Source: a virus (lineage: Duplodnaviria > Heunggongvirae > Uroviricota > Caudoviricetes). From it: 27,714 nt of DNA. Numbering within the stretch: the stretch's first letter is position 1; each line of letters opens with the position of its first letter. The stretch lies in the IMG/VR virus record IMGVR_UViG_2778261035_000014. One strand, 5' to 3'. A program made the translations under genes and the position numbers. Of this stretch, positions 1-18,711 are shown piece by piece. The notes beneath the pieces are model-generated. The model did no database searches. It worked only from the letters and a program-made list of their open reading frames with translations, and had not been told where the DNA came from.

Positions 1-552
1 TTACGTGGGTAGGATCAGAACTCCATCCAGTCGTTTGGGGTTGCTAATGACGTCCTGCATCCGCTTAATCTGGTCGGGCGTAGACATATAATCCCACAGG
101 GTGAGCAGAACCTTTTTTGCGGCTACACTATTTCCCTGATCTGATACTAATGCCATATAGCCCCATAAACTATCCCTCAGCCAGACAGCATCATAGTGGG
201 TTTCTGCCGCTGTTTTGTCATCTTCGAAAGTAGAAGCAAGAATAAATGTTCCCCAGGGTTTCTCCGTCAACGTTAACTTTCGTGTGTTTTCTGTTAATGT
301 TAACAACCCTTGAATTTCGTCTTTGGTATAGTGGCTCTTTATTTCATTTTTTAATTTGGCTGAGTGAATCAGAAGACGATAATTAGGGTACTTATCTGGA
401 TTTAACGATAAATAACTTTTATCTGTTGCTGCCCCCGTGGAATTAAGAATGTTAAATACAGATTCACTCGTCACTTCTGCCCCTGTCGCCTGGCATGTGC
501 CGCACGAAAATATACCAGCGAGCAGAAGAGTTAATGCAGATTTCCCTTTCAT
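1..552 (-). CDS. Exported protein of unknown function, probably chromosomal flank
   Basis: Complete ORF with a stop at the window edge. The ORF-track start (594) is GTG; the ATG at 552 (alternative 564) gives a canonical signal peptide MKGKSALTLLLAGIFSCGTCQATGA. Moderate GC. Lies outside the first att repeat. Confidence 0.55.
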   Translation of the reverse strand: MKGKSALTLLLAGIFSCGTCQATGAEVTSESVFNILNSTGAATDKSYLSLNPDKYPNYRLLIHSAKLKNEIKSHYTKDEIQGLLTLTENTRKLTLTEKPWGTFILASTFEDDKTAAETHYDAVWLRDSLWGYMALVSDQGNSVAAKKVLLTLWDYMSTPDQIKRMQDVISNPKRLDGVLILPT

Positions 553-785
553 AAAATAATCCATCAATCGTTTGTTAAAAGCGTAGATAACCACTTATTC
601 AACAACTTGAAAATAAGGTATTTTACCTGGGTTGTTACAAAAGGATTGCATTGCGTAAACGCTTTTTATTTACAAAAAAATGGGGAAGTGTTACAGCGAT
701 TGCGAAAAGCCTGAAGCGGTTGAATTAAGATAATATAGAAAATCAGATACAGCAAAAATGGCAGATTGATCAGGTGAAGATAAAT

Positions 786-832
786 TGGAGCGGGCGAAGG
801 GAATCGAAAAGGCTTGCTCTAAGCACCGGAAA
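786..832. repeat. Left att junction: 22-bp core tggagcgggcgaagggaatcga (786-807) plus 16-bp motif ctctaagcaccggaaa (817-832)
   Basis: The core is identical to 14043-14064 and the 16-mer to 13978-13993. The core's reverse complement TCGATTCCCTTCGCCCGCTCCA has a T-loop, acceptor 3' strand and CCA, matching my recollection of tRNA-Gly (glyU-type). The adjacent sequence does not fold into a full tRNA. Confidence 0.6.
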
Positions 833-900
833 AGATAAACCAAACAGACGTTTACGTAAATCCACGGTAACTAGTAGCGGTAGCTTACTAGGTTAAGACC

Positions 901-2115
901 ATGACGATCAAGGGCAAAGGAACAAATTATCTTTACGTAAACAGTGACGGGATTTATATCATCCAGCTTCATATTCCCGTTTACATGCGCCACCTCTGGA
1001 ACGGTCGCAAGATGCTTAAAAAATCAACAGGCACTCGCGATCTTGTGTTGGCTCGTAGGTTTCGTGATCAGTACCTGATGGAGTTCAGAAGGCTACAGGC
1101 GCAATTCAACCCAAATGCTTATCTCCTCAAGATTCAGTCAGCCATTACCGATCTACGTTTCGTTGGTGCTGCATCTACTAATCTCGTTCCAGATTTTCAG
1201 ACAGCCACCAAAGGGAAACCTTCAACGCCAAAGTTAAAAGACCTTTGCGACGAATACATGAAGGTGTATTCAGACAGGCGGAGCTACTCCACTTTGCAAA
1301 AGTCTGCCCGTGCTGTCGAGGCGTTTACGAAATCCATAAAAAGACCAGCGATTACAATTGGCAGTATTGGTCGCCGTATGGTGACGGAGTTCCTGGAGGC
1401 TAACCAAGGCAAGTTTTCACCTCAAACGTTGCAGAACTGGCTAACCTCTTTGGGGAGTCTGTACGAATTCGCCAAACGTCGATATGACGCAATCCCGGAC
1501 AGTAACCCGTTTCACGGTCACAACCTCGAAGCACGGCGCACCATTGAAAGTTATCAACCGTTTGAAGCCAATCAACTGGATACCCTTATCAGAGAAGCGG
1601 ATGACGTTCTACGCGATGTCATATTAATTGGGCTGTATTCAGGAATGCGACTTGATGAGATCGCCAGCATTAAACGGGATGAGATTGTAATGTTGGAGGG
1701 TGTCAGATGTTTCTTTGTCAGCAAGTCCAAGACTGTAGCCGGGGTGCGGTATGTTCCGATCCACTCGCTACTGATGGGGATTGTTGATAAGCATCTGACA
1801 CAGAACAGTGGTGAATATCTTCTGGCACAGTCTAATAACATCATTCGGAAGGATGGCAAGCGAGGTCCGTGGTACAGCCAAAAGTTCACCCGGCTGCGTG
1901 ATAGCGTTTTGCCAACAGCTACAGATCGGCAGTGCTTCCACTCTTTGAGAGGGATGTTCATCACCTGCCTGGACCGGGCAGGAGTTCCCGAACAACGGAT
2001 CGGAGCCATTACGGGGCACACAGAGCAGAAAGCGAAAACTGAAGCATTCAGAACCTACAGCAAAGGCGCGGGGATGAAGGAACTATCAGAGTATGTGGAG
2101 TTGGTGAATTACTGA
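901..2115 (+). CDS. int: Tyrosine-type site-specific integrase (phage integrase family)
   Basis: 404 aa. C-terminal catalytic motifs are visible: SGMRLDE (Arg), HSLRGMF (His-x-x-Arg), GHTEQ...RTYS (His/Tyr). Its C-terminal half is about 70% identical to the 14141-15361 product. Confidence 0.9.
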   Translation: MTIKGKGTNYLYVNSDGIYIIQLHIPVYMRHLWNGRKMLKKSTGTRDLVLARRFRDQYLMEFRRLQAQFNPNAYLLKIQSAITDLRFVGAASTNLVPDFQTATKGKPSTPKLKDLCDEYMKVYSDRRSYSTLQKSARAVEAFTKSIKRPAITIGSIGRRMVTEFLEANQGKFSPQTLQNWLTSLGSLYEFAKRRYDAIPDSNPFHGHNLEARRTIESYQPFEANQLDTLIREADDVLRDVILIGLYSGMRLDEIASIKRDEIVMLEGVRCFFVSKSKTVAGVRYVPIHSLLMGIVDKHLTQNSGEYLLAQSNNIIRKDGKRGPWYSQKFTRLRDSVLPTATDRQCFHSLRGMFITCLDRAGVPEQRIGAITGHTEQKAKTEAFRTYSKGAGMKELSEYVELVNY

Positions 2116-2136
2116 AAAATAGGGGGCGAGCCCCCT
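2115..2136 (-). terminator. Intrinsic terminator hairpin between convergent genes
   Basis: Stem aggggg/ccccct (2121-2126 / 2131-2136) with loop cgag; on the minus strand it is followed by a T-run, 7 nt downstream of the 2143 stop. Confidence 0.4.
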
Positions 2137-2142
2137 AAAGTG

Positions 2143-2421
2143 TTATTTAGGCCATTGTTCTTTAATAAAATTAGCAACCTCTGCCGACAAGTTGAACCAA
2201 CTTGCAACATTGTTGCTTGCATCAACAACGATTAATTTATCGTCTGCATCCATAGATTTTCGCACAATTTCCGCAGCTTGCGAGGCGGTATAAGTTGAGT
2301 TCACATACCAGTTCGATTCTGTGACTTTTGCCCAAGCTCCTAATGATTGGATGGCTTTATGTACTGCCGGGTAGTCTTTGGTCTTGATCAGGTCGTAAGT
2401 TACAAAGAGGTTATTTGCCAT
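2143..2421 (-). CDS. Hypothetical protein (92 aa)
   Basis: ORF with ATG at 2421 (MANNLFVTYDLIK...) preceded by a GGAG Shine-Dalgarno; the longer ORF-track start is GTG. No family recognised. Confidence 0.55.
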   Translation of the reverse strand: MANNLFVTYDLIKTKDYPAVHKAIQSLGAWAKVTESNWYVNSTYTASQAAEIVRKSMDADDKLIVVDASNNVASWFNLSAEVANFIKEQWPK

Positions 2422-2610
2422 TTCGCTTCTCCATGAACGCCATAACACCGAATTTTTAACTACGTTAGCGTTATAGCGACTTCTAGCGACTTCCGTAAAC
2501 GGTCAGTTATCAAACAATTGACACTGGTCATAAAACCAGTAAAAACTTTTTTCCGAGCTTGCTAACTTTGCCGCTTCGCTTCTATCATAACCACTACATA
2601 TTGTGTTTAT

Positions 2611-2619
2611 TGATATAAT
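2611..2619 (+). promoter_or_regulatory. Extended -10 promoter element TGATATAAT
   Basis: Exact TGnTATAAT match about 45 nt upstream of the 2664 ATG; no good -35 needed. Confidence 0.35.
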
Positions 2620-2663
2620 AAATACAATATATCCAAACATCCATCCCGTGAATAGGTGTTGAA

Positions 2664-2912
2664 ATGGCGAACAATGATAAGCAATCCTCGAAAGATGTAG
2701 CACATCTGGCAGCAGAGACTCTAAACAACCCAAACGCCTCTGCGATTCAGAAAAGTTTAGCGGGTTCGGTGCTATCACAAGCAGGAACAAAAAATCAGAC
2801 TGGCGCAAACATGGAAGCCAAAGCATCCGCAGCATTGAAAAACCCACGCTCAAGCGAGGTTACTAAAACCTTAGCTGGTTCGGTTGTTTCCCAATCGAAT
2901 AAAAAGCGCTAA
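2664..2912 (+). CDS. Small hydrophilic protein with an internal repeat (stand-alone moron-like gene)
   Basis: 82 aa with AGGTG Shine-Dalgarno. Internal repeat (Q/T)K(S/T)LAGSV(L/V)SQ occurs twice. Has its own promoter and terminator. Confidence 0.55.
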   Translation: MANNDKQSSKDVAHLAAETLNNPNASAIQKSLAGSVLSQAGTKNQTGANMEAKASAALKNPRSSEVTKTLAGSVVSQSNKKR

Positions 2913-2946
2913 AAAAAAGCCGGGATTAACCCGGCTCTCATGTTTT
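2911..2946. terminator. Bidirectional intrinsic terminator
   Basis: A8 tract, then stem gccggg/cccggc (2919-2924 / 2930-2935) with loop attaa, then tgtttt. It reads as hairpin plus T-tract on both strands, between convergent stops at 2912 and 2938. Confidence 0.6.
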
Positions 2947-3150
2947 CAGCTTTCGTTGTCGCTGTTCGCTCAAGTAGTACCTGATAGCGCTGTCGAATCC
3001 ATGCGTATGGATGCGGTCAAGAAGGCTGGAACGACTACACTCAAGCCTGCGTGCTAACGCTGACATGTTGATGATCGCATCATCGCCTTTACCGTCCAGA
3101 ATCCACTGCATCAGCGGCATGTTGCCAGTACCGATCAAAGCTAATTTCAT
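2938..3150 (-). CDS. Small helix-turn-helix DNA-binding protein (70 aa)
   Basis: ATG at 3150 with a perfect AAGGAG Shine-Dalgarno 6 nt upstream. HTH-like segment MSALARRLECSRSSLLDRI. C-terminus AIRYYLSEQ resembles the 17329-17544 product (AVQYYVSKQ), and both sit just downstream of the capsid gene. Confidence 0.6.
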   Translation of the reverse strand: MKLALIGTGNMPLMQWILDGKGDDAIINMSALARRLECSRSSLLDRIHTHGFDSAIRYYLSEQRQRKLKT

Positions 3151-3263
3151 ATATATCTCCTTTCCTTTGCCTCCAGCACCGAAGGTGTCTCGCAATAGCG
3201 AGAGTGCTTCGCACCGTTAGCCTCGCCAGCAGCGGGGGCAATGCGCCCCCAAAATCCGCTGTC

Positions 3264-4280
3264 TTACGCCGCGTCATCCATCGTAATTTTCAAAACGAAG
3301 TCCGGACGCATTGGGATCTGAATTTGTGATAGCTCGCTGACCACCTCATAATTCATGAACTTATCACGCAGAACGTAATGGTAAGACGGATAAACCGGAC
3401 CATTAGCAACTTCTGCGTGGCGTGAGGCTGGCGTGCAGTAGGTCATATAAGGTGAAAGGTCGCCTTCAACAACATTGGAGAACGTCGCCAGCATGTAGCC
3501 TTCACCATCTGCAATGCCATATAGCGGATCGTCAACCTGCACCACTGTTACACGCCCGATGTTATATCGATCATATGCACCCAAAGTGTCAGGGAAAATG
3601 ATGTCACGGGACGTAGCACCAAACAGAGCCGCCTGATATGCGGTTGGGTTGCCTTGAATGGCGGTGAAAAGACTCGGACTCGCCAGCAGATAAACCTGCT
3701 TGATGCTGGAAGACCAGCCACCCAGATTTTTCTTCAGCAGCGTGACAGCGTTCTGCATCTCAGTAATGACGTTGGCACTGATGCCAGTTTTCACCACAGC
3801 AGACGGCTGGTTAATACCCCAGAAGGTTTGCCAGTTCAGATCAGGACCTTCACGTAGGTGTGTCGCCTCTACAGTATTGTGAAGCAGGCTCTGCGCCATG
3901 GCATATTCAACATCACGGCGGGTTTGCAGGTAGTGCTTCAGGGTATGATTAGCAACTACATCTTCAGCGGTCATCTGGCGATTTGTTCCCGGCTGACGTT
4001 TCCCCTGCCAATCCTGGCTGGTGATGGTTGAGCTGTAGACATGCAGTGGAGCCTGAACGGTCACGTTAGCCGCTTTAGGGAAGTTTAGACCCGACATTTC
4101 AGAACCATAACGGGCAACTGATTTAGTCACTTCACGCTGCACATCTTCAAGTGTGTCGAGTGCGATGATTTGCGTATCACTTGGACGGCTGGTAAAGATC
4201 CCCAGGCTGGACAGAAGGAACCCCTCGCCGCTTGGCTTCACGAATTGACCAGAAAGATTAGTAAAATCACTTAATTTCAT
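3264..4280 (-). CDS. Major capsid protein, lambda gpE-like (Phage_cap_E-type)
   Basis: 338 aa against about 341 for lambda E. By eye it shares block patterns with my recollection of gpE, such as a C-terminal RPDFVLKIT motif. Paralogous to 17665-18693 (DWQGKRQPG vs DVQGKRKPG). AAGGAG Shine-Dalgarno. Follows a ~115-aa gene, as in lambda D-E. Confidence 0.7.
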   Translation of the reverse strand: MKLSDFTNLSGQFVKPSGEGFLLSSLGIFTSRPSDTQIIALDTLEDVQREVTKSVARYGSEMSGLNFPKAANVTVQAPLHVYSSTITSQDWQGKRQPGTNRQMTAEDVVANHTLKHYLQTRRDVEYAMAQSLLHNTVEATHLREGPDLNWQTFWGINQPSAVVKTGISANVITEMQNAVTLLKKNLGGWSSSIKQVYLLASPSLFTAIQGNPTAYQAALFGATSRDIIFPDTLGAYDRYNIGRVTVVQVDDPLYGIADGEGYMLATFSNVVEGDLSPYMTYCTPASRHAEVANGPVYPSYHYVLRDKFMNYEVVSELSQIQIPMRPDFVLKITMDDAA

Positions 4281-4298
4281 ATTGTTATCTCTCCTTGA

Positions 4299-4643
4299 TT
4301 AGATTGCGGTGTTTGCGTCAGCAATACGGTTGCCTTGCTTAACAAGGGCAGCGTAAGCAGCATCTTTTGCAGCAGCCGCTACAACCAGACCTGATGGATT
4401 GAACACGCATTGGGTATCACTGATAACAAGGCTACGGGCATCACCAGCGACTTGATTTTGCAGAGCTACAGCACAGTTATCAGCATCTGCTGCAACGTAT
4501 GCCGCGCCAGTGGTCGGGTTAATCACATCACCACAAGTCACATCAGCAGCCAGATCAAGGATCACGGTGCGCTTATGAAAGATCGGTGAATCGGTATAAA
4601 CCAATACATCCTGTGGGGTTTTGCTTTCGTATTCGAATGCCAT
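4299..4643 (-). CDS. Putative head decoration protein (gpD-like by size and synteny)
   Basis: 114 aa from the ATG at 4643, which has a GGAGA Shine-Dalgarno (ORF-track start is 4658). Directly upstream of the capsid gene with an 18-nt gap. Paralog at 18712-19083. Product is assigned from size and position, not from clear sequence identity. Confidence 0.45.
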   Translation of the reverse strand: MAFEYESKTPQDVLVYTDSPIFHKRTVILDLAADVTCGDVINPTTGAAYVAADADNCAVALQNQVAGDARSLVISDTQCVFNPSGLVVAAAAKDAAYAALVKQGNRIADANTAI

Positions 4644-4694
4644 ATTTTGTATCTCCATACAGTTTTTATAATCCGGCGAATATGCCGGGTTGAG

Positions 4695-4722
4695 TTGAAA
4701 AAATACCGTCCATCGGACGGCA
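4695..4722 (-). terminator. Intrinsic terminator or attenuator upstream of the capsid operon
   Basis: Stem ccgtcc/ggacgg (4706-4711 / 4715-4720), followed on the minus strand by TATTTTTT. A second hairpin ccggc/gccgg at 4673-4688 lies between it and the start codon. Confidence 0.4.
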
Positions 4723-4996
4723 TTCTTCTATTCGTGTTCCAACAGAAAAAGACCAAGGCGAGAATATCCCGCCCGGTGTAGGTCAGTAGTTTTCTGATGG
4801 AGAGATTTGGAAAGCATGAGTGTGTTCACGCTTCAGGAATAAGGAGGCGGCAACGCTCCAAAGAATGGGTAAGGAGACCCAAAAACGTTGCCACCTGATG
4901 CCGTTAGTGTCCGGCTGACAGCCTTCCGAGGATGAAAGGGCTTTGGCAAATCTCCGATCCAAGGTCGGAGAAAATTCTTCTACACCCGTTTACGGG

Positions 4997-5016
4997 TTAG
5001 CAACATATGTTGCTAA
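4997..5016. promoter_or_regulatory. Perfect 20-bp palindrome ttagcaacatatgttgctaa (candidate operator)
   Basis: Exact dyad symmetry, preceded by hairpin cccgtttacggg (4985-4996). Sits in the 650-nt ORF-free gap between the tape-measure-like gene and the capsid genes. Confidence 0.4.
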
Positions 5017-5313
5017 TCGCTCTACGATACTTTTCTAATACAGCCAGCGGCAATGGCCTAACCTTCCCGTGAGAGAGTGCGGATTATTGGCTGTATGAGA
5101 AAAGGCCCGCACGGTGTTCACACAGGCACTTTAAGTAAGGAGAAGGAATGACAACGGCTGTTGTACGCACATACAATTTAAATCATCACCCTATGCAATT
5201 ATTTTAACACGAATGATTATCATTTGCAACAACAAAAACAATAACATGGCGAATTTAACGGCCCTCTCTCGTGTGGGCCAATTTACTACGTCATTTTTGA
5301 CGGAACGATGATT

Positions 5314-7482
5314 TTAGTCCGCAATCCCAAGGATGAGGTTATTCTGCGCCTGGTTGTTTTCCCTTATCTTGGTATCAATCAGACCGTTAATCGCACCATC
5401 ATTAACATTCACCTCAAGAGGCGCAAACTTGATCTCAGCTTCGCCAGTGACCGCAACAGGAATCGGCTGTCGTTGAACTATGCTATCAATTGTCGGAACC
5501 GTGAACGTTGGTTGCTGGGGTGTCAGATAGTTCAGGCCAGGAACATTCAACGCTAGTGCTGGATCGTTATACGCCATGCCTGAGCCGATATTGCTCGGAG
5601 CGGAACTATCCAGCCACGGGTAAATCTGCTTAAGCGTCTGACCGATGCTACGTGGATCAAAGCCGGTCTTTTCCTTAATCCAATCGGCAGCACCATTTGA
5701 GGAGTCATCTACCACGCTCGTATAAACCGCATCCGGCAATGTTGCGCCTTTCTTGAGTTCTTCACCGACTCGACCAGCGAAGGAAAGAATGTTGGTGGTT
5801 AGCTCACCAAGAGCAACGCCGAGGGCATCGGAAATTGGGATCAGTCCAGTCATATTCTGACGTAGAGTGTCAGTATTGGCAGCGTACTGCCCCAGGCCTT
5901 CAACAAACGAGGCTGAGAAGTGATCCGCAAGACTTGTTTGTACTCGGTTGTACTCAGCACCCAAAGCTGCCAGCTTATCAAGGTTGGCCTGCTGTGCATC
6001 AGATAGGGTCCATCCTTCAGAAGCGAGTTGATGCATACGGGCAATAACTTCATCACCTTCCCCACTGATACCCGCCATCAAGACCGATCCGTCATTGATC
6101 GCTTCCAAAAAATGACGCATGGAATTCTCTGTCCAGCCGAATTGTTTACCCAACTGCCGCACATAGGTAACGAAGGTCCCCATGTCCAATTTCTGAAGCT
6201 CGCCAATCACTTTTTGTGCTGTTCGCTGGTTGGTTTTGCTAAGAACTGCATTCACCAGATCGGCAAGTTCACCACCTCCGCTGAATGTTGTTACCCCTTG
6301 CTTGTTAGTTTTAAAGGAACCGGTATTCAGTAGCTCACCTGCTTTCTCGAAGTAATCCTTATTCATGGACGCATACTTATCTACGGTCAGGTCGTACCCT
6401 GTACGCTTCTGTACAACGTCATGGATAGCATTAAATTCAAGCTGGCTAATATCATACTGCCTTAATTGCTGCGCCTCTCTGGAGCGTTCAAGACTCCCCT
6501 GGAGGGTCTGACCAACACGAGCAACTCCCATTGAACCAATCAGGGATCCCCCTGCAATTACACCAGTGGCAGCGAGGCCACCATAACCACGTTCGCTACG
6601 TTCACGTCTCAAACGTTGAGCATTAACGCGCCCTGCTCGCTCTACTTTAGCCCGATCCTTAACCATCTGGCGGTTAATACGTGCCTGCCGCCTGGTTTCC
6701 AGAGTCGCTTTAGCAAGTTCATGGCGCATTTCTGCGATGGTATAACGCTGCTCGGAGTATCCCTTGGTAGCCTCTTTGATTGCCTGCACCGCTTTCATTT
6801 TGTCAGCCAGGCTGGCACCTTCGATATGGCTGATCGTTAAACTGGCGCGGCGTAGGGTGTCGTATGCAGTGCTCTGGCGCTTGAGGCTGGCTTCTTTCTC
6901 ACGCTGGCGCTTCTCTTCCAGGGCCATCGCCTTTTTGGTGGCTGCGATGTCAGCAGCAACAGCGCCGTGACCACGGTTCATTGCGTCAGTCTGACGGGAA
7001 ACAAGACCAGGATCGTAATGTTGACCGCCCATGTTAGGGTTGTAGGTCATCGCTCGTGATCTGGCTGCGGCCTGCACTTTTGCGGATATATTGGCTAAAC
7101 GGGCGTTTTGTCTCCGGATCTGTTCACTATCTGCCAATTGTTGAGCCTGCCCTCTGGCGTTAAGAGCCTGCATTTTCCGGGCGTGAGCCTCTTCCTGTTT
7201 TGCGATCTTTGCCTGGGCTTGGGCCTGGCGTTGTTGCTCTAGCGAAAGCTTTTGAGCCATTTTGAGGCGCTGTGTTTGAGCGCGGGCTGCTTCAAGGGCT
7301 GCTTTACCCTCACTCTGGGCGGTTCGCTTCTGAGCTTGCTCCAGCGCTTTAGCAGGTTTGGTAGTTAATTGCTGAAGTGACAGAATTTTCTTCTTCGCTG
7401 CTTCGTAACTAGAGCGGGAAATTTCCCAGCTTACGATATTGACGGTGCTCGTCACTATCTTGTTGGTTGTTCCACTACTCAT
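5314..7482 (-). CDS. Long coiled-coil protein with a glycine-rich hydrophobic segment (tape-measure-like, function unresolved)
   Basis: About 722 aa from the ATG at 7482 (MSSGTTNK...), which overlaps the upstream stop in ATGAGTAG. N-terminus is Ala/Gln/Lys/Arg-rich and helical. Central segment GYGGLAATGVIAGGSLIGSMGVARVG. Analogous to 15469-17310. Confidence 0.6.
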   Translation of the reverse strand: MSSGTTNKIVTSTVNIVSWEISRSSYEAAKKKILSLQQLTTKPAKALEQAQKRTAQSEGKAALEAARAQTQRLKMAQKLSLEQQRQAQAQAKIAKQEEAHARKMQALNARGQAQQLADSEQIRRQNARLANISAKVQAAARSRAMTYNPNMGGQHYDPGLVSRQTDAMNRGHGAVAADIAATKKAMALEEKRQREKEASLKRQSTAYDTLRRASLTISHIEGASLADKMKAVQAIKEATKGYSEQRYTIAEMRHELAKATLETRRQARINRQMVKDRAKVERAGRVNAQRLRRERSERGYGGLAATGVIAGGSLIGSMGVARVGQTLQGSLERSREAQQLRQYDISQLEFNAIHDVVQKRTGYDLTVDKYASMNKDYFEKAGELLNTGSFKTNKQGVTTFSGGGELADLVNAVLSKTNQRTAQKVIGELQKLDMGTFVTYVRQLGKQFGWTENSMRHFLEAINDGSVLMAGISGEGDEVIARMHQLASEGWTLSDAQQANLDKLAALGAEYNRVQTSLADHFSASFVEGLGQYAANTDTLRQNMTGLIPISDALGVALGELTTNILSFAGRVGEELKKGATLPDAVYTSVVDDSSNGAADWIKEKTGFDPRSIGQTLKQIYPWLDSSAPSNIGSGMAYNDPALALNVPGLNYLTPQQPTFTVPTIDSIVQRQPIPVAVTGEAEIKFAPLEVNVNDGAINGLIDTKIRENNQAQNNLILGIAD

Positions 7483-7858
7483 TGCCCCCCCCCTGCTGCT
7501 TGATGATATTGCCGTAACGATCAGGATCAGATTTTGCGAGTGCAGCAGCCGCTGCTTTAGCTTTCGCCAGCATTTCAGGATCGATATGGTCAGCGGTATG
7601 TGAGACAACCGGACGGCTATCAGCACCCAACGATTTTTTAATCCGTTGTTCAGCACCAAAGGTGTCTCGCATTGGTGAGAGGGCTTCGCCCTTTTTACCC
7701 GTGGGTGTGTCAGCCGGGGCTGATTTGAGCAACTCCGGATGTTGATCCAGAAAGTTATCGGTGACGCTCTTCAGATTGTCCCGCGCTTTTTGAAGTTCGT
7801 ATTCCTCCGGTGTCATGCCATGCATGGCGGCGAAAATCCGGTCTTTTATTGTGGTCAT
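7475..7858 (-). CDS. Hypothetical protein (127 aa)
   Basis: ORF with a GGAGA Shine-Dalgarno, translationally coupled to the downstream long gene. Contains the MRDTFGAE segment whose DNA (7655-7695) is about 85% identical to 3175-3217. Confidence 0.45.
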   Translation of the reverse strand: MTTIKDRIFAAMHGMTPEEYELQKARDNLKSVTDNFLDQHPELLKSAPADTPTGKKGEALSPMRDTFGAEQRIKKSLGADSRPVVSHTADHIDPEMLAKAKAAAAALAKSDPDRYGNIIKQQGGGNE

Positions 7859-8029
7859 TTTTATAGTATCTCCAGAGAAGGATGCTCCCGCCGATCAGGA
7901 CGTGACGAAGCGCCACCCAGCCCCAAGGCAGGAAAAAGATGTAATCAAGGTTCATTGGCCCCCGATGTGGGGTTGGGTCAGTGCATCGCAAGGCGATTAA
8001 CAGCAATTGCTGTTAACCCTTTCAGGGTG

Positions 8030-8608
8030 TTAGTAGTGCAGGCGTGGTGAACGTCGCTGCGGGTTCTTCTGTTTTCTGGCGACTGTTTCACGATAGGCCA
8101 CAAACAACGGATCAGTATGATCCGGCATTCGAGATGCCATTTCTTTTTCAGTGATTCCTTCACGCTTAAGCAGCGTCACCACGGTGAATAGAGGCAGTTG
8201 AAGGTCAGCACAGATTTTTGCCAGCATTGCGCCGGATTCGTAGTACATTCGGGCCATTCGCTTAGTGGCATACTGACTGGTATTGCTTATCTTACGACAG
8301 CGAGGATTCCACGAGTTATCGTAAAGGCCTTTTACCAGGTCATACGGCAAGCGTAGGAGCAGCGCCGTTTTGCCTGGGGTGTAACCATGCACGAGCATTT
8401 TTTTAGCAGTCTCGATCAGCGAAGAATCACGAGAGCGGGATTTGTAAAAACGTGACAAATCGGGGGTTTCAGCACCGGAGGTGTTTACCTCTGGTAAACT
8501 GCTTCGCACCGTAAGGGATTCAGCCGTCAGGCCGTTGGCTGTCTGGCTGATGCCAGTTACTTTCTCACACAATATTCCTCCAGTATCAAAAAGGGATCTC
8601 AGGATCAT
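8030..8608 (-). CDS. Hypothetical HTH-containing protein (possible regulator or small-terminase-like); start uncertain
   Basis: ORF of up to 199 aa whose 5' end overlaps the rep-like gene. HTH-like segment GAMLAKICADLQLPLFTVVTLLKREGI. No family recognised with confidence. Confidence 0.35.
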   Translation of the reverse strand: MILRSLFDTGGILCEKVTGISQTANGLTAESLTVRSSLPEVNTSGAETPDLSRFYKSRSRDSSLIETAKKMLVHGYTPGKTALLLRLPYDLVKGLYDNSWNPRCRKISNTSQYATKRMARMYYESGAMLAKICADLQLPLFTVVTLLKREGITEKEMASRMPDHTDPLFVAYRETVARKQKNPQRRSPRLHY

Positions 8609-9389
8609 CTTCATCGTAGTGATATACATCCGGCCCGTTAACTTGTTGCTTTACTGGCGCTGGTTCTGTTGCGGGTATATCGTCAGGCCGCATCTGTTCT
8701 CCTGGCTCACCCATATTGGTTTTGCCTTTCAGTTTCCATACAAGTTTGATCTCATCCTGCCAGGTTGTAGCACCATGGGATTGCGCCCAGCGTCGCGCCT
8801 CTGGAACCAAATCCCCACGAGAGGTAAACGAGTTGGCGAGCCATGGTATCCCGACAACATTTTCCCCAGCTGACTCACTCAGTGATGGATCATCACTATT
8901 GGATAAATCAACATCGACAGGAATATCCACAGCAGGTACGCCGTCTGGTTTTCCAGTAACAGGCGCGGCAGATGCCACCACGAAAGATTCCACAACAGGT
9001 TTTTGCTCATTCTTACCGCTCTCCTCGGTTTCCACTTTTCTATTACTCGCCTGCGCGGAATTATGATCGTCAAGAAAAACCATCAGCGATGGATCGAGTT
9101 CGACCGGAGAAATTTTGTGTGTACTCCCCTTCACTTCCTCAAAAGTGATCATTCCAGCTTCACGAAGCTTGTTCCTGAAATTGCGAACGGCTTCGGGCTT
9201 GCAGCCGCAACGTTTACCAATCGTGCCAACAGATTCGTAATAAGTTCTGCCTGTTTTGTCATAGCTGTAAACCAGAGATAACAAAATTTTCATGTTGCCA
9301 TTAATGGTCAGGCCGTTGTACTCGGTAAGGTCGAGAACGCTGTATTCAAGTTTTACAAAATCCTTACTGTCCCGGTTCTGTTTGCTCAT
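8586..9389 (-). CDS. Replication-initiator-like protein with N-terminal winged-helix DNA-binding domain
   Basis: 267 aa with a GGAGA Shine-Dalgarno. N-terminal segment KILLSLVYSYDKTGRTYYESVGTIGKRCGCKPEAVRNFRNKLREAGMIT is typical of phage or plasmid replication initiators. Acidic Pro-rich C-terminus. Positional analogue of 21938-22603. Confidence 0.55.
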   Translation of the reverse strand: MSKQNRDSKDFVKLEYSVLDLTEYNGLTINGNMKILLSLVYSYDKTGRTYYESVGTIGKRCGCKPEAVRNFRNKLREAGMITFEEVKGSTHKISPVELDPSLMVFLDDHNSAQASNRKVETEESGKNEQKPVVESFVVASAAPVTGKPDGVPAVDIPVDVDLSNSDDPSLSESAGENVVGIPWLANSFTSRGDLVPEARRWAQSHGATTWQDEIKLVWKLKGKTNMGEPGEQMRPDDIPATEPAPVKQQVNGPDVYHYDEDDPEIPF

Positions 9390-9567
9390 TCTGTTCTCCG
9401 TAAAGTGTCGCCTTGCTGGCTAATGCTGGTTTGATGTCTGGTGTGTTGTCGAAAATGTTCGCGGCAGTCTCCAAGATTTCATTACAGAGCCGTGCCAGGG
9501 GCTTGTCCTGCCTTTTGGCCTCAGCCAGTAGAGCCTGATAAACGTGCTGTTGAAATTTGATGTTCAT
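9364..9567 (-). CDS. Ribbon-helix-helix (CopG/Arc-like) DNA-binding protein
   Basis: 67 aa. MNIKFQQHVYQALLAEAKRQDKPLARLCNEILE is clearly homologous to the element-2 small ORF MNINFDSATYNALLNRAKAEGKSIPKLVNELLI. Overlaps the rep-like gene start. Confidence 0.55.
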   Translation of the reverse strand: MNIKFQQHVYQALLAEAKRQDKPLARLCNEILETAANIFDNTPDIKPALASKATLYGEQNEQTEPGQ

Positions 9568-9655
9568 TCAAGTTGTCCTCCTCGTTCTAGGTACAAAAGA
9601 CCTCCCGCCAGTGGTCGCCCAGAAGGCGAACCGGCTCAGGTTTTGTTCAGTGTTG

Positions 9656-10102
9656 TTAGGCTGCGGTTGCTGTCGGGAATTCGCCAGCCAGTGGATAACC
9701 GTAGGCTTCAAGTTCTTCTGCACCGCTGACAGCCACAAGCAGCATAATGATCTGCTCATGAGTCAGAGAAAGACCTAGCTTATCCAGATAAAGCTGTCGA
9801 TGGCCTTCCAGGATTGGACGAAGTATATCGGTCAACTCCATTCCAGCAGCGCGTTGATTACTCAGCGGCTTAAGGATGGTTTTAAACGCTCGCGCCTGCT
9901 TCGCCTTTTTGCGCTCCTGCTTCAGAATATGCAGGCAGACGGCAATCTGAGGAAGTCGGGCATGTACAGCGTCTGCCCCGCCGTTTCTACTAATGAAGGC
10001 CCACAAGGCTGATTTGGTGTATTTGCCGTTCAGGATGAGATCAGCGATCTGCTCGCCTGTCATAGTGGTCAGGTCGAGACGTTGGGATTTTGGTTTATTC
10101 AT
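9656..10102 (-). CDS. Hypothetical protein (148 aa), first gene of the leftward operon
   Basis: ORF with a GGAGA Shine-Dalgarno; no family recognised. Confidence 0.5.
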   Translation of the reverse strand: MNKPKSQRLDLTTMTGEQIADLILNGKYTKSALWAFISRNGGADAVHARLPQIAVCLHILKQERKKAKQARAFKTILKPLSNQRAAGMELTDILRPILEGHRQLYLDKLGLSLTHEQIIMLLVAVSGAEELEAYGYPLAGEFPTATAA

Positions 10103-10850
10103 TGGGTTCTCCGTTCTGTTAAAAGAATTATTCGCGGAGGTTCTATTTGTAACCCATTTTGTATTGCCGTGAGGTTGACAAGGAATGTCGTGATGACGGC
10201 AGAATTATTCGAGGATTCATAGGTAAATCATTACCCTACTAGAATCTATTGTATCAGATTTGTCTGTAAATAGCAATCATTATCATGTAGGATTTTATAA
10301 TGCATAATAATCACCATAACACTACAAGTTTACAAAATCTTTGTCAATAGTGCCAAGCCGTTCTATAACGCGTTCTGCGGGTACTTGTCACCATAGGAGT
10401 ACATACGTATCACCACCACCGTTTAAACGCCATAGAGAGGCTTTAAGGAGGTCTGTTAGTTAACCCGCGCCGCCCCGGAGTGAACCGGACAGATGCAAAG
10501 CAGTCCTCTACGCCGTGCTCCGCTCCACATATGGCGAACAAGTTCGCAGCTTCCACACAGAGTAAGAGCGTAGCTCTATGGCGTAGCCTGCCGGGTTACC
10601 CGAGTCACAGAGCGGAGCGATGTGTTAACGAGGGTTAGAAGGTCACGAGATGGCGTGGCTGTTTCACGTCAGCGAAGGTGAGCTTCTTACCACAAACATA
10701 TCTGAAGTGGCTGACCAGCCATTGCAGAGCGGAGCGATGCAGAAGCATCACTATTAAAACTAACAGAATGACCAACCGTCATTCCGTGCTCTCGACCTGG
10801 AGGTACTTTTCTTATCAGTTCTTTTATGGGGATTGTTATTTATTATTATT

Positions 10851-10932
10851 GTGCTCGAAAATCGACTACCCCCTACTCGAAAATCGTGCAGGTAGGTGCT
10901 CGAAAATCGAGGGGGTGGGTACACGAAAATCA
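10851..10932. repeat. Iteron-like array: four ~23-bp direct repeats with core CTCGAAAATCG
   Basis: gtgctcgaaaatcg (10851), tactcgaaaatcg (10875), gtgctcgaaaatcg (10896), acacgaaaatca (10921). Spacing is 22-24 bp, about two helical turns. The spacers ctaccccct and agggggtgg are complementary. Confidence 0.55.
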
Positions 10933-12213
10933 TGCAGGTATCACCGGGTGAGAATTTTCCAAGTCATCCACGCGACCAACGCACCGATGAAAACTTCCGG
11001 TTTGATATGTCCGCGTCATGCTTCAATGGCACAATCAACGGCAACACCTGAGGCGGTCCAAACACCTGATCCGCTCCGAGAATTGATCATCTCCCTCCCC
11101 TGCTTTCATCTGAAAGTACCGACCATTCTCCGCGCTGGCTGAAGATTGGCAACCCTATACTGATTTTCTGTCAAAATTTGGTGGATGATCTTTACCATTG
11201 GCTATCTTGTAAACAAAATAGATTAAATGCACCTCAAATAGCCCATAATCCGTAGTTAATCATGCTAAAGTGGTCACTATGCGTACAAATCAGAAGTCTG
11301 AACCTATGGGCGTTATGGTGTGATGTACATAACGAAGCCTTGCCAGCACTGGAAGCGTGAAATTTGGTGGCTGGTATCTGGATCAAGCAACACTCAATTT
11401 CTGAACCTTCGCTTCAAAAAAATAATAAAACAACACACAAAACCAAAACAGATGCCCTCTGGTGGCTGCTGTATCGCGCTGTGGGATGCTGTGGATTATC
11501 GGTATGTCAGTTCACGTTTGTGTAGAGATAACGCCGCTACGGGTTTCTGGTTGAGCGTAGGAGGGATTGGTGGGTTGGCTGTTTACATTGTTGTGGGAAA
11601 TGGTACGAAACAGTGGCGGCCTGGCTCGGTGAATATCACCAGGTGATGGCAGACCTTCAGCCCGTTGTGGTAACGTCGCCGTAGTAGCCCTATGTCTGCT
11701 GCGAATAGAAAAATGTGCTTTTATGGCATTTGATGCACTGTAAACTTCAAAGGCCTGAAACCTGAAATTGTGTGGTGACCAGCCAAACTCATCCAAAATC
11801 CTTGAACAAGAGAACTCACCTCAAATCCTCCTGAATGCTTTCCTTCTGTTGGTGAAATCGCTGTTGTGTACCACGCTTCGCATCAACGCTCCGAAAAGCA
11901 ATACCTGACTATTCCAGTCAAGTACATGTAAGATACAATATGTTAAATGGCTGTACAATTAGTGAACACAGGCACTTCAAAACATCAAGTTATCTCCCTT
12001 GCCTCAGCCCAAAGCAGCATTGTGTAACTGCACTGCTTGTTGCAGTGAGGCGTGTCGCTGAAGGCATCACGTAGCGATATTTGGCGAAGAAAAGCGCTTT
12101 TCACCGAGGGCCTGGGCTGACGGTCTAGCAGATCACCAACAGAGCTGGGGATATTTTCAACAGGAGAATGTAAACTTGGAAGATAAAGAGCCGGGACACT
12201 TACGGGGCAGGTT

Positions 12214-12429
12214 GTGGAAATGAAGAAAATTTTACTATTTGTTGTGGTACTGCTGCCGCTGGCGGCTCATGCAGGAAAAATCACCATAAGCAACCCCGAC
12301 GAACAAGAATTACAGGGCGGGAAAAGGCTTTGCACTTACGAAAACAGCATTTATCTGTTTACGCTGGTGACTCGCTCGCAATCCTGCCCTTTCTCAAAAA
12401 CGTTCGATACAAATGATAATGAAAAGTGA
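12214..12429 (+). CDS. Small secreted protein with two conserved Cys (paralog of 25846-26061)
   Basis: About 70 aa with signal peptide MKKILLFVVVLLPLAAHA. Conserved blocks GKITISNPDEQ, LCTYENS.YLFT, CPFSKTFDT are shared with the element-2 paralog. Confidence 0.6.
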   Translation: MEMKKILLFVVVLLPLAAHAGKITISNPDEQELQGGKRLCTYENSIYLFTLVTRSQSCPFSKTFDTNDNEK

Positions 12430-12442
12430 AACGGAATGTCTG

Positions 12443-12931
12443 CTAATGGGGTGCTTTGCCGATCATCTCCTTAAGATCTTTGAAGCGTTCTTTGATTATT
12501 CTTCCATTCTCGGCTAAACGATTCGCTTCAAACGCAGTGAATTGAGCAATATTTTCTATTTCTTCGCGGCTGATGCTCATAAAATTCTCATCAAGCTTAG
12601 AGAGCATATTTGTGACACCTTGTCTACTTTGTGTAAAGAAACCAAGGTTATCTCTGACACCCTTAAGAAGTTCTTTCTTACCATAAGGGTTCATATTTGT
12701 ACTCGTTTCTATAGACTTGATAAGCTCTTCCGTGTCACTACATATTCCACGGTAAACCAGTTCGACCTCACGAAGCTCTTTCACTGTATCAATTTTCATT
12801 TTCCTTAATGAATCATGCTCAGCATTTTTTCTTGATCGATAGGTGTTATACAGAGCAGTTATACTGACAACAAGTGCAATGAAAGAGAATAGAGCGCTAA
12901 AAAAAGGCAGCAATTCTTTTGACATTTTCAC
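12443..12931 (-). CDS. Membrane-anchored coiled-coil protein (cargo, unknown function)
   Basis: 162 aa with a GGAG Shine-Dalgarno. N-terminal TM helix LLPFFSALFSFIALVVSITALY, then a charged helical domain. Low GC. Confidence 0.6.
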   Translation of the reverse strand: MKMSKELLPFFSALFSFIALVVSITALYNTYRSRKNAEHDSLRKMKIDTVKELREVELVYRGICSDTEELIKSIETSTNMNPYGKKELLKGVRDNLGFFTQSRQGVTNMLSKLDENFMSISREEIENIAQFTAFEANRLAENGRIIKERFKDLKEMIGKAPH

Positions 12932-12953
12932 TCCAAATTTATTAGTCTAGAAG

Positions 12954-13652
12954 TTAACTTCTAAATTTTTGAAAACAACGTCGATCAATCTCTTGTGCCA
13001 ATCTAGTCCGCATCTCTCCATAGCTTAATCTTTCCATATCTGAGGCTATTTTCCAACCACAACCTTTGAAATTACATTTAATAATAGGAAATGGGACATA
13101 GTTATAGAGATCAACGCTGGAGTGTTGGCTAAGAAGGCCTCCACATTTAGGGCATCTCATGTGAAGATTTATTAAAGAGTACCCACTATCACCTAATGCT
13201 TTAGTCCATTCCCAAGAAACTATCATTTCATAAATATTATCCGAAGTATAATGCAAAAAACTGCCCTCTTGTCCTGTAGCTTTCGCTGCAATACGACGGC
13301 GCATTACAAATCCAACAGTAGGTAAAATTGCCAATAATAAAATCGATAAAATGAGGAGCATCCATAAGGGCATTGTGACTGGGAAGGTAAGGATGTCCAT
13401 TAACCAATGGAAGAACTGCTTAATGTAATTCCATAGCCACACAACGACGGCGATCCCACTTCCTCCAGTGACAAGTGCAACGATAACGCCCGATATGCTG
13501 TCTTTGCTAAGGTCTTTCAACCATGCCATAGAAATTCTTCTTATTAAGCTATTCTTTATGCTCAATTTTACAGCGAACCAGATTTTAGGCAATAGGAGCC
13601 ATAAAGCGCCGTGATGGGTACATCCATCGATCAGCGCCTTCAGGCGTGTCAT
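12954..13652 (-). CDS. Membrane protein with C-terminal 4-Cys zinc ribbon (cargo, unknown function)
   Basis: Up to 232 aa; the start may instead be the internal ATG at 13529. Two or three hydrophobic helices, then CPKC-(x25)-CNFKGC. Sits 22 nt upstream of the 162-aa gene, so probably an operon. Confidence 0.55.
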   Translation of the reverse strand: MTRLKALIDGCTHHGALWLLLPKIWFAVKLSIKNSLIRRISMAWLKDLSKDSISGVIVALVTGGSGIAVVVWLWNYIKQFFHWLMDILTFPVTMPLWMLLILSILLLAILPTVGFVMRRRIAAKATGQEGSFLHYTSDNIYEMIVSWEWTKALGDSGYSLINLHMRCPKCGGLLSQHSSVDLYNYVPFPIIKCNFKGCGWKIASDMERLSYGEMRTRLAQEIDRRCFQKFRS

Positions 13653-13977
13653 CAGATTTTCAGCGGTAACGATCAGTGAGTCAGGTGTGCATTTTCGTAT
13701 ACACGAAACGGGGTAGAGCCTGCCGCTTTCCCGGACAGGTTAGTAATCCCATCATATCGCCTGTTTATCCCGCGCTAAGGTCGTCGTAAGCGCCGCTGTT
13801 TCAGGAATGGTTTATAGCCATAGTGAAAGGCTTTGTTTTCTTGTTGGACTATCGCGGTAAGACACTGGAACGACCGCCAGCGTTTTGATAAGCTTCCTGA
13901 TCACTACTCACCAAATCGCGGTAGTTACCAAGGTAGAACGTCGAGAGGGTTCTCAACAGCGCTTACAGAGCGCCTCC

Positions 13978-14064
13978 CTCTAAGCACCGGAAACATAAAG
14001 ATTTTTTAGCTGATTTTAAGCGTAAAAAATCGCTGGAGCGGGCGAAGGGAATCGAGGAAACCCA
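13978..14064. repeat. Inter-element att junction: 16-bp motif (13978-13993) and 22-bp core (14043-14064)
   Basis: Same two motifs as at 786-832 but in the opposite order and with 49 nt between them. Confidence 0.6.
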
Positions 14065-14140
14065 TAATAACCTGCTGTAAAATAAAGATTTTGTGATCAA
14101 TCATAGGTAACTGATTACGTGATAATAGAGGATCATTATC

Positions 14141-17310: not shown

Positions 17311-17328
17311 AATATTTTCCTTTACCTT

Positions 17329-18693: not shown

Positions 18694-18711
18694 TATGTTT
18701 ATTCCTTTATA

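What the first reader, a model, noticed from the sequence alone, without database searches (positions are those of the whole stretch)
786..14064. Two diverged integrative elements in tandem at one tRNA-like att site
Identical 22-bp cores (786-807 and 14043-14064) are each followed about 80-100 bp later by an integrase gene in the same orientation. The two integrases are clearly homologous in the catalytic half but differ in the N-terminal half. A 16-bp second motif recurs at both junctions in different arrangements. Tandem occupancy of one site by related elements suggests repeated acquisition and possible competition or co-mobilisation. The complete tRNA and the third att copy are not in the window.
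Basis: partly seen in the sequence, partly recalled or inferred. Interest (0 to 1): 0.6.

Follow-up and report, generated by a model that had tools for sequence, protein, structure and literature searches.

The report
Two satellite-like elements tandem at glyU
Two distantly related ~13-14 kb mobile elements sit one after the other at the 3' end of the E. coli tRNA-Gly gene glyU; tandem insertion at a tRNA gene is ordinary, but each element carries phage capsid, decoration and tape-measure genes without any packaging or tail machinery, so they look like an undescribed family of phage satellites.

Summary
The exact 22-mer is at 786-807 and 14034-14055, not 14043-14064. It is the reverse complement of the 3' end of tRNA-Gly(CCC) glyU.

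Complete E. coli genomes show every state of the site with breakpoints exactly at the core. These states are empty (K-12), element 1 alone, element 2 alone, and the tandem pair (RM10740). In RM10740 the intact tRNA and a third core lie about 510 bp past the window end.

The tandem interpretation is therefore supported. Such arrays are a known phenomenon.

The 16-mer "second motif" is not shared by the two junctions. Both copies belong to element 1, one at each end, so they would flank the core in its excised attP.

The more interesting result is what the elements are. Each encodes:
- an integrase;
- a lambda-O-like replication initiator with iterons;
- a capsid protein plus a gpD-like decoration protein;
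- a tape-measure protein homologous to those of phi92/rV5-like virulent myoviruses.

Neither encodes a portal, terminase, tail tube or lysis genes. Each also has a conserved, covarying structured non-coding element next to the tRNA.

They fit none of the four defined satellite families (P4-like, PICI, cfPICI, PLE). Helper dependence is inferred, not shown.

The parts
1..594 (-). Chromosomal flank: truncated ygeQ (edge of the ETT2 region)
   Evidence: RefSeq annotation of the identical stretch in RM10740 and TW10690
786..807 (-). Core copy 1. This is the displaced 3'-end fragment of glyU (read on the - strand) and the distal boundary of element 1.
   Evidence: Exact 22-mer. The same flank|core junction is present in K-12, TW10690 and SCU-102.
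808..14033 (.). Element 1 (E1). Core-to-core spacing is 13,248 bp.
   Evidence: Found alone between core and tRNA in at least 9 complete genomes, with the match ending exactly at 14055
817..832 (+). 16-mer CTCTAAGCACCGGAAA, copy at the left end of E1. Putative arm-type integrase site (inferred).
901..2115 (+). int1, a tyrosine integrase (DUF6538 N-terminus plus Phage_integrase)
   Evidence: Pfam and PHROG 1. Catalytic motifs intact.
2143..3150 (.). Three small genes of unknown function (2143-2421 -, 2664-2912 +, 2938-3150 -)
   Evidence: PHROG 1090 and 5079, unknown function
3264..4280 (-). E1 major capsid protein (HK97 fold, lambda-E-like)
   Evidence: PHROG 29 at 5.7e-10 and weak Phage_cap_E. 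About 24% identity over the full length to myovirus capsid proteins. PDB Sf14 and Bas63 capsid proteins at E about 1e-3.
4299..4643 (-). E1 head decoration protein (gpD-like)
   Evidence: Weak Pfam HDPD hit. 34% identical to the E2 homolog, whose model matches decoration proteins.
5314..7482 (-). E1 tape-measure-like protein, 722 aa
   Evidence: PHROG tape-measure families at 3e-10. 27-30% identity to segments of tape-measure proteins of E. coli and Klebsiella myoviruses of about 137-141 kb. That these are rV5-like Vequintavirinae is from memory.
7475..8572 (-). Two unknown genes (127 aa, overlapping the tape-measure start, and 180 aa)
   Evidence: No family hits
8586..9389 (-). E1 replication initiator (HTH_36, lambda-O/DnaD-like; the counterpart in L019 is annotated DUF6945)
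10103..12219 (.). ORF-poor 2.1 kb with three 23-bp tandem repeats at 10874-10940. Putative iterons and origin (inferred).
   Evidence: No annotated CDS.
12220..12429 (+). Small secreted protein (signal peptide, 2 conserved Cys). It is the most conserved protein of the family.
   Evidence: 75-99% identity across Enterobacterales. 48.5% identity to the E2 copy.
12443..13529 (-). E1 variable cargo (160 aa, 191 aa), function unknown
   Evidence: No PADLOC or Pfam hits
13575..13905 (.). Conserved structured non-coding element. Strand unresolved, with the + strand slightly favoured.
   Evidence: Alignments and covariation. No Rfam match.
13978..13993 (+). 16-mer copy at the right end of E1
14034..14055 (-). 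Core copy 2, the E1/E2 boundary
14056..27714 (.). Element 2 (E2), cut about 510 bp before its tRNA-proximal end. Its full length in SCU-102 is 14,198 bp core to core.
   Evidence: 99.9% identical to the solitary element of SCU-102 from 14034 onward
14141..15361 (+). int2, a tyrosine integrase (DUF6538 plus Phage_integrase)
15469..17310 (-). E2 tape-measure protein, 613 aa
   Evidence: PDB phi92 gp134 at E=8.5e-51. PHROG 16051 at 6e-67. About 30% identity to Phapecoctavirus and Justusliebigvirus tape-measure proteins.
17665..18693 (-). E2 major capsid protein
   Evidence: Pfam Phage_cap_E above its cutoff. PDB Pakpunavirus P7-1 capsid at 3e-11 and phi92 gp124 at 5e-7. dN/dS about 0.1.
18712..19083 (-). 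E2 head decoration protein
21938..22603 (-). E2 replication initiator (HTH_36, O-like)
22967..25177 (.). ORF-poor, AT-rich 2.2 kb with an exact 23-bp tandem repeat at 23918-23968 and 21-bp repeats at 25103-25173
25178..26061 (+). Small (192-224 aa) tyrosine recombinase plus the 71-aa secreted protein
   Evidence: Pfam PF00589 at 1e-15..
26067..27714 (-). E2 variable cargo (139, 216, 184 aa), function unknown
   Evidence: PHROG families of unknown function and one faint AbiEi hit

Best explanation
The window is the glyU locus of an E. coli chromosome. It carries two independently acquired members of one family of ~13-14 kb integrative elements, inserted head-to-tail by tyrosine-integrase recombination within the last 22 bp of tRNA-Gly(CCC).

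Each integration regenerates the tRNA 3' end and leaves a displaced core copy. The array therefore reads ygeQ flank | core | E1 | core | E2 | core + rest of glyU, with the last core just outside the window.

The chromosomal background matches that of strains carrying E1 alone. The simplest history is that E2 entered the regenerated tRNA of an E1 carrier (inferred).

Each element has its own integrase and its own pair of direct repeats flanking the core in the reconstructed attP. Those repeats are candidate arm sites (inferred).

The elements themselves are most likely phage satellites (inferred from gene content):
- they can integrate and excise (integrase);
- they can replicate (O-like initiator plus iterons);
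- they supply their own capsid shell protein, a gpD-like cement protein and a tape-measure protein;
- they must take portal, terminase, tail tube, sheath, baseplate and lysis functions from a helper.

The closest relatives of the structural proteins are in large virulent myoviruses: phi92/phAPEC8-like for E2 and rV5-like for E1.
For: Shown:
- The core is exact and non-random and equals the glyU 3' end.
- The empty, E1-only, E2-only and tandem states all have boundaries exactly at the core.
- The third core lies inside an intact tRNA-Gly in RM10740.
- Both integrases are intact and 60% identical.
- The two elements share an architecture but are deeply diverged: capsid proteins 23%, decoration proteins 34%, tape-measure proteins 23%, replication initiators 24%.
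- Further family members sit at thrW and at tRNA-Gly, tRNA-Thr and tRNA-Leu genes in many Enterobacterales.

Gene content:
- Capsid proteins.
- Tape-measure proteins.
- Decoration fold.
- Replication initiators.
- No portal, terminase, tube, sheath or lysis family in any ORF.
- The largest unassigned ORFs are at most 216 aa.

Other:
- The capsid gene is under purifying selection, with dN/dS about 0.1.
- phi92 has the same adjacent decoration-then-capsid gene order.
Against: - There is no direct evidence of excision, replication or packaging. No circular or virome-derived copy was found; every contig examined was integrated.
- No helper is identified. Identity to any sequenced phage protein is only 24-31%, and no DNA similarity to any phage record was found for window 10100-14140.
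- No lambda or P2 cos site is present.
- Why a satellite would need its own tape-measure protein is unexplained.
- The order of acquisition is inferred from flanks only.
- The arm-site role of the repeats is inferred. A GGTAACT-like motif occurs in the arms of both elements, so their arm specificities may overlap.
Confidence: 0.75

Rival explanations
1. The elements are anti-phage islands, not transmissible satellites. On this view the capsid, decoration and tape-measure homologs act as dominant-negative decoys that poison head and tail assembly of infecting rV5/phi92-like phages. The elements would spread by other means or only vertically.
For: - The structural homologs are only 24-31% identical to those of phages.
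- A variable cargo region lies next to the att site, as in defence hotspots.
- A very conserved small secreted protein could act at the envelope.
- Satellites and islands that interfere with tail assembly are known (title and abstract of PMC11364771, listed).
Against: - An integrase, replication initiator and iterons are conserved in every member.
- A complete capsid-plus-cement pair under purifying selection is kept over a wide divergence, which is more than a decoy needs.
- No PADLOC model matches.
- Interference and transfer are not exclusive; known satellites do both (my own knowledge).
Confidence: 0.15
2. The elements are decayed remnants of ordinary prophages that happen to share an integrase type and site.
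For: - They carry phage structural genes but lack most virion genes.
- Deletion and IS-disrupted variants exist (L022 and L026).
Against: - The same ~13-14 kb gene set and order recur in deeply diverged members, at three different tRNA genes and in many genera.
- All ORFs are intact, and the capsid gene has dN/dS about 0.1.
- A conserved structured non-coding element shows compensatory changes.
- The nearest structural relatives are virulent myoviruses of about 94-155 kb. Such phages are not known to lysogenise (my own knowledge).
Confidence: 0.05
3. The region 786 to the tRNA is one composite island with an internal att-like repeat and moves only as a unit.
For: Only one of 5,426 complete genomes shows the same E1-E2 junction. 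The outer cores could in principle recombine.
Against: - Each half exists alone at the same site with boundaries exactly at the core.
- Each half has its own intact integrase.
- E2 in RM10740 is a mosaic variant of E2 in the window, while E1 is identical.
Confidence: 0.03

Closest known systems
Tandem arrays of tRNA-gene-integrated genomic islands or satellites (Islander/TIGER-type islands; tandem satellites noted by SatelliteFinder)
   Same: - A tyrosine integrase and a crossover in the 3' end of a tRNA gene.
- A regenerated tRNA plus displaced core copies marking each boundary.
- Successive insertions at one site.
- Tandem satellites are explicitly handled in PMC10085698.
- glyU is a known hotspot, with ETT2 and GI-glyU.
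   Different: Nothing in kind. Here the two occupants are distant relatives of one family whose integrases keep the same core specificity.
Capsid-forming PICIs (cfPICI)
   Same: A small integrative element (about 10-15 kb) that encodes its own HK97-fold capsid protein and depends on a helper for the rest. It has an integrase and a replication module.
   Different: - cfPICI core genes for portal, head-tail connector and adaptor, and terminase are absent here. Protease and alpA (from memory) and a pri-rep type primase-replicase (named) were also not found.
- A tape-measure (tail) gene is present. Tail genes are 'forbidden components' in the cfPICI and PICI models.
- The capsid relatives are virulent myoviruses.
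P4-like satellites
   Same: An enterobacterial ~11-13 kb element integrated at a tRNA gene with a variable cargo hotspot. P4 Psu decorates capsids (my own knowledge).
   Different: No P2-type cos site was found. No hit suggesting an alpha primase-helicase turned up in the general Pfam, PHROGs and NCBIfam scans, and no P4-specific models (psu, delta, sid, alpha) were run. The integrase has a DUF6538 N-terminus. The element encodes its own capsid protein instead of an external scaffold.
PLE of Vibrio cholerae / PICMI (satellites of virulent phages)
   Same: If the helper inference is right, this is an integrated satellite that exploits a virulent myovirus and builds small capsids.
   Different: PLE remodels the helper's coat protein with TcaP (title and abstract of PMC10945586) rather than encoding a capsid protein. 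No detectable sequence homology was seen, and the hosts differ.

Membership tests
tRNA-gene-integrated island (tyrosine-integrase integrative element) | Direct repeats equal to the 3' part of a tRNA gene bound the element, with an intact tRNA at one end | tested here: met
   Cores are at 786 and 14034. The third core lies inside an intact tRNA-Gly in RM10740. The junctions were compared.
tRNA-gene-integrated island (tyrosine-integrase integrative element) | Element-encoded tyrosine recombinase with catalytic R, HxxR, H and Y | tested here: met
   Pfam PF00589 in both. Motifs located.
tRNA-gene-integrated island (tyrosine-integrase integrative element) | Presence/absence polymorphism with breakpoints at the repeats | tested here: met
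   Empty, E1-only, E2-only and tandem genomes
tRNA-gene-integrated island (tyrosine-integrase integrative element) | Excision to a circle with attP | not testable with these tools
   Needs outward PCR or read-level data. No circular contig was found.
cfPICI | Own portal, head-tail connector and adaptor, protease and terminase genes beside the capsid gene | tested here: not met
   No such family in any ORF. No unassigned ORF is longer than 216 aa.
cfPICI | No tail genes (forbidden component in the model) | tested here: not met
   Tape-measure homologs in both elements. The rule is quoted from PMC10085698.
P4-like satellite | psu, delta, sid and alpha genes and a P2-type cos site | tested here: not met
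   No P2 cos within 3 mismatches. No hit suggesting a P4 alpha-type primase-helicase in the general Pfam, PHROGs and NCBIfam scans. No P4-specific models were run.
PICI (classical) | int plus alpA plus pri-rep, with terS or capsid-remodelling genes and no capsid or tail genes | tested here: not met
   No Pfam or PHROG hit to an AlpA-type or terminase small-subunit family in any ORF scanned, and capsid and tape-measure genes are present
Phage satellite (generic: depends on a helper virion for transfer) | Lacks an essential part of the virion and packaging genes but keeps integration and replication functions | tested here: met
   Gene inventory
Phage satellite (generic: depends on a helper virion for transfer) | Induced and packaged by a helper phage | not testable with these tools
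   Experimental. Only distant protein similarity points to phi92/rV5-like phages.

The most novel reading that the evidence does not exclude
E1 and E2 are members of an undescribed, widespread enterobacterial family of phage satellites that parasitise large virulent rV5-, phAPEC8- or phi92-like myoviruses.

The family would build its own small decorated capsid, supply its own tape-measure protein, and carry a family-specific ~170-260 nt structured RNA or DNA element beside the att site, plus a highly conserved small secreted protein.

A tandem pair with capsid and tape-measure modules of different lineages would give one host two satellites tuned to different helper subfamilies.
Probability: 0.4. 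Interest if true: 0.75.

Novelty: new variant of a known kind. Interest (0 to 1): 0.5.

Why it matters
The tandem array itself only illustrates a known route of island accretion at tRNA genes. The elements matter more.

If they are satellites, they extend the known repertoire in E. coli and relatives to a type that detection tools built on the four defined families would miss, because tail genes are exclusion criteria there. They would also point to satellites of large virulent myoviruses that are often isolated as candidates for phage therapy.

A satellite-encoded tape-measure protein would be a new way of using a helper's tail.

The conserved structured element and the small secreted protein are concrete, testable handles. 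So is the natural pair of integrases, which share a core site but have diverged N-terminal domains and different flanking repeats.

Tried and rejected
- **tRNA scan of the window:** nothing found. The tRNA lies outside.
- **Rfam, whole window, E <= 0.1:** nothing.
- **Lambda and P2 cos searches:** chance-level or no matches.
- **blastn of 10100-14140 against 50,697 phage records:** no match.
- **PADLOC on the cargo genes:** only a faint AbiEi hit.
- **NCBIfam:** only weak, sub-threshold Xer-type recombinase hits for the two integrases, and nothing for the structural or replication proteins.
- **Literature (10 searches):** no paper in the held library describes such elements. This does not show that none exists.
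- **Search for excised or virome copies through IMG/VR, Logan and ENA contigs:** every contig examined was integrated and none had terminal repeats.
- **Inversion of the ORF-poor region next to the small recombinase:** none seen among the loci.
- **The 69-aa conserved protein as an excisionase:** rejected. It has a signal peptide and two conserved cysteines.
- **Pairwise similarity of the E2 decoration protein and 71-aa protein to phi92 gp123 and gp133:** none. The decoration assignment rests on the fold.
- **RNAalifold on raw MAFFT alignments:** missed the helices because of misalignment. They were recovered with motif-anchored extraction.
- **First hypothesis that the ~500-bp right arms are integrase arm regions:** weakened, because the conserved part is also present in the thrW element, which has a different integrase.

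Full report
**1. Observation**

The 22-mer TGGAGCGGGCGAAGGGAATCGA occurs exactly twice in the window, at 786-807 and 14034-14055. No further copy appears with up to three mismatches, and none appeared in 100 shuffles.

Each copy is followed on the + strand by an integrase ORF. These are 901-2115 (93 bp downstream) and 14141-15361 (85 bp downstream).

The integrases are 60% identical overall. Identity is 40% over residues 1-115 and 69% over 116-404, and both keep the R, HxxR, H and Y catalytic motifs.

The 16-mer CTCTAAGCACCGGAAA is exact at 817-832 and 13978-13993. ARAGORN finds no tRNA in the window.

**2. Where the window comes from and what the core is**

The first 14.2 kb is 100% identical to E. 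coli RM10740 (NZ_CP043821), and 5,269 of 5,426 complete E. coli genomes match part of it. The left flank is a truncated ygeQ. In RM10740 the region is followed by tRNA-Gly, actS and xdhA, which is the glyU locus (K-12 annotation).

The core is the reverse complement of the last 22 nt of glyU. In K-12 the sequence reads flank-TGGAGCGGGCGAAGGGAATCGA-ACCCTCGTATAGAGC.... glyU is a documented insertion hotspot, with ETT2 and 'GI-glyU'.

**3. The tandem array is real**

The junctions line up exactly:

| Genome | Arrangement |
|---|---|
| K-12 | flank, core, tRNA body |
| TW10690 | flank, core, E1, core, tRNA body |
| SCU-102 | flank, core, E2, core, tRNA body |
| Window and RM10740 | flank, core, E1, core, E2, core, tRNA body |

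- In RM10740 the third core is at L001 45392, inside an intact tRNA-Gly. That corresponds to about 510 bp beyond the window end.
- Nine complete genomes match the window from base 1 to exactly 14055. In the one inspected, TW10690, E1 is alone between core and tRNA.
- About 200 genomes carry an int2-type left end, and their matches start exactly at 14034.
- The E1-E2 junction itself is present in only one complete genome.
- The window's E2 is 99.9% identical to the solitary E2 of SCU-102. RM10740's E2 is a mosaic variant, 94-99% identical with the capsid-decoration segment not aligning.
- No genome in the collection is the exact source of the window.
- The chromosomal flank (IS3 plus truncated ygeQ) is that of the E1-only strains. 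E2 therefore probably entered the regenerated tRNA of an E1 carrier. This is an inference.

**4. The second motif**

Both 16-mer copies lie inside E1. One is 9 bp after the left core and one is 40 bp before the right core. In an excised E1 circle they would be direct repeats flanking the attP core.

E2 has its own pair, ATAGGTAACTG, which lies 47 bp after and 53 bp before its cores in SCU-102. These are plausible arm-type integrase sites. Together with the diverged N-terminal domains, they suggest that each integrase recognises its own arms while both share the core. This is inference. A GGTAACT-like motif occurs in both elements' arms, so cross-recognition is not excluded.

**5. What the elements are**

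E1 (13,248 bp) and E2 (14,198 bp in SCU-102) share one architecture. The integrase gene is on the + strand at the tRNA-distal end. Most of the remaining genes are on the - strand.

Shared components:
- **Major capsid protein.** E1: PHROG 29 and weak Phage_cap_E. E2: Phage_cap_E above its cutoff.
- **Small protein immediately upstream of the capsid gene.**
- **Large tape-measure-like protein.**
- **Lambda-O/DnaD-like HTH_36 initiator**. The counterpart in a third member is annotated DUF6945.
- **A ~2 kb ORF-poor stretch with 23-bp tandem repeats**.
- **A small conserved + strand gene.**
- **Variable cargo.**
- **A ~500 bp non-coding end.**

Detectable E1-E2 homology is limited to the integrases (60%), capsid proteins (23%), decoration proteins (34%) and the 69/71-aa proteins (48.5%), plus marginal tape-measure and initiator matches.

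Evidence on the structural proteins:
- The E2 tape-measure protein matches phi92 gp134 in the PDB at E = 8.5e-51. It is about 30% identical over 380 residues to the tape-measure proteins of phAPEC8, ESCO5 and phi92-type phages.
- The E2 capsid protein matches the Pakpunavirus P7-1 capsid (9zbi) and phi92 gp124. It is 24-26% identical over its full length to capsid proteins of ~150 kb myoviruses.
- The E1 tape-measure protein matches tape-measure segments of E. coli and Klebsiella myoviruses of about 137-141 kb at 27-30%. That these are rV5-like Vequintavirinae is from memory.
- phi92 has the same adjacent decoration-then-capsid gene order.

No ORF matches a portal, terminase, protease, scaffold, tube, sheath, baseplate or lysis family. 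No unassigned ORF exceeds 216 aa.

The capsid gene is under purifying selection, with dN/dS about 0.1 against relatives of 75-79% identity. dS is saturated, so the ratio is approximate.

**6. It is a family**

- A third member with a different integrase sits at tRNA-Thr in strain 2016C-3878.
- E2-type capsid proteins occur in Escherichia, Klebsiella, Citrobacter, Enterobacter, Cronobacter, Dryocola, Serratia and Pantoea.
- Metagenome contigs show the same gene order with alternative replication modules.
- The exact E1 capsid protein is on record in 2,556 assembly blocks.

**7. Comparison with known kinds**

The elements are not P4-like, classical PICI, cfPICI or PLE. See the membership table.

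SatelliteFinder treats tail proteins as forbidden components for PICI and cfPICI. [quoted passage not shown] These elements would therefore be missed or rejected by it.

Ten full-text searches found no description of such elements. This is absence of evidence within one library only.

**8. Mechanism proposed**

Shown: site-specific insertion at the glyU 3' end, twice.

Inferred:
- Each element excises with its own integrase and replicates from the iteron region with its O-like initiator.
- During infection by a helper, it assembles a small capsid from its own capsid and decoration proteins on helper portal and scaffold.
- It is packaged by the helper terminase.
- It receives helper tails into which its own tape-measure protein may be built.

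The main alternative is that the structural homologs act as assembly poisons, so that the island functions in defence. The two readings are not exclusive.

Nothing here shows excision, packaging or a helper.

**9. Things seen in passing**

*(a) Structured non-coding element.* A conserved structured non-coding element lies at 13575-13905. E2's copy is just past the window end.
- It is present in all family members examined, including the thrW element.
- A motif scan found 27 copies that also carry the downstream CCTGTTT motif, nearly all in Enterobacterales genomes. In 21 of them a tRNA-Gly(CCC), tRNA-Thr(CGT) or tRNA-Leu(CAA) gene on the opposite strand lies about 450-515 bp downstream.
- Three helices show compensatory changes.
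- On a 19-sequence alignment, 93.5% of cells pair, against 30-51% when partners are slid. Seven pairs and 26 cells have double-sided changes. The covariation score is 0.21 against 0.113 in shuffles, with 0 of 500 shuffles reaching it.
- The structure was derived from these same sequences, so the slid controls flatter it.
- Rfam has no match.
- The strand is unresolved. G-U counts lean towards the + strand, and alifold energy leans towards the - strand.

*(b) The 69/71-aa protein.* It is a signal-peptide protein with two conserved cysteines and is 75-99% identical across genera. That is far more conserved than the structural genes.

*(c) Small tyrosine recombinase.* E2 carries a second, FimB-sized tyrosine recombinase. 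No inversion polymorphism was seen.

**10. Verdict**

The content of the two elements is the unusual part and deserves experimental follow-up.

Noticed in passing
window 13575-13905 (E1). E2's copy is at L017 16225-16565, just past the window end. Also L019 16560-16905 and 27 genome-contig loci.: A conserved ~170-260 nt structured non-coding element beside the tRNA-proximal att site of every family member. It has invariant blocks (CAATAGNAGCCATAAAGC, CTTATCAGG, ACCTGTTTA) and three helices with compensatory changes, and some members carry inserted hairpins. Rfam has no match. The strand and function (ncRNA, pac or ori signal, or leader) are unknown.
   Followed up: partly
window 12220-12429 (+) and 25846-26061 (+): A small secreted protein (signal peptide, mature part about 50 aa, two invariant Cys; PHROG 4641, unknown function). 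It is 75-99% identical across Enterobacterales and is much more conserved than the capsid or tape-measure genes of the same elements.
   Followed up: partly
window 25178-25852 (+): A second, short (192-224 aa, FimB-sized) tyrosine recombinase in E2-type elements, next to a 2.2 kb AT-rich ORF-poor region with several inverted repeats (for example 23594-23619 / 24366-24391). No inversion variant was found among the loci compared.
   Followed up: partly
window 10874-10940, 23918-23968 and 25103-25173: Tandem 23-bp repeats (three copies in E1; 2.2 exact copies in E2) and 21-bp repeats inside the ~2 kb ORF-poor regions. They are likely iterons for the O-like initiators, that is, origins.
   Followed up: no
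window ~716-785: About 70 bp between ygeQ and the first core is present in the window, TW10690 and SCU-102 (all occupied sites) but absent from K-12 (empty site). It could be a deletion in K-12 or a scar of an earlier element.
   Followed up: no
window 17631-19288 and 23983-24587 versus L001: E2 in RM10740 is a mosaic of the window's E2. The capsid-decoration segment does not align at megablast level and part of the ORF-poor region is replaced, while E1 and the flank are identical. This indicates module exchange or independent acquisition of E2 variants.
   Followed up: partly
L022 and L026 (E1 copies in other genomes): Degraded E1 variants exist. One lacks the tape-measure-to-initiator segment and one has IS2 in the integrase gene.
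   Followed up: no
window 4644-5313 and 19302-20175: 0.7-0.9 kb gaps without annotated genes immediately upstream (in the direction of transcription) of the decoration-capsid gene pair in both elements. They may be a regulated late promoter region.
   Followed up: no
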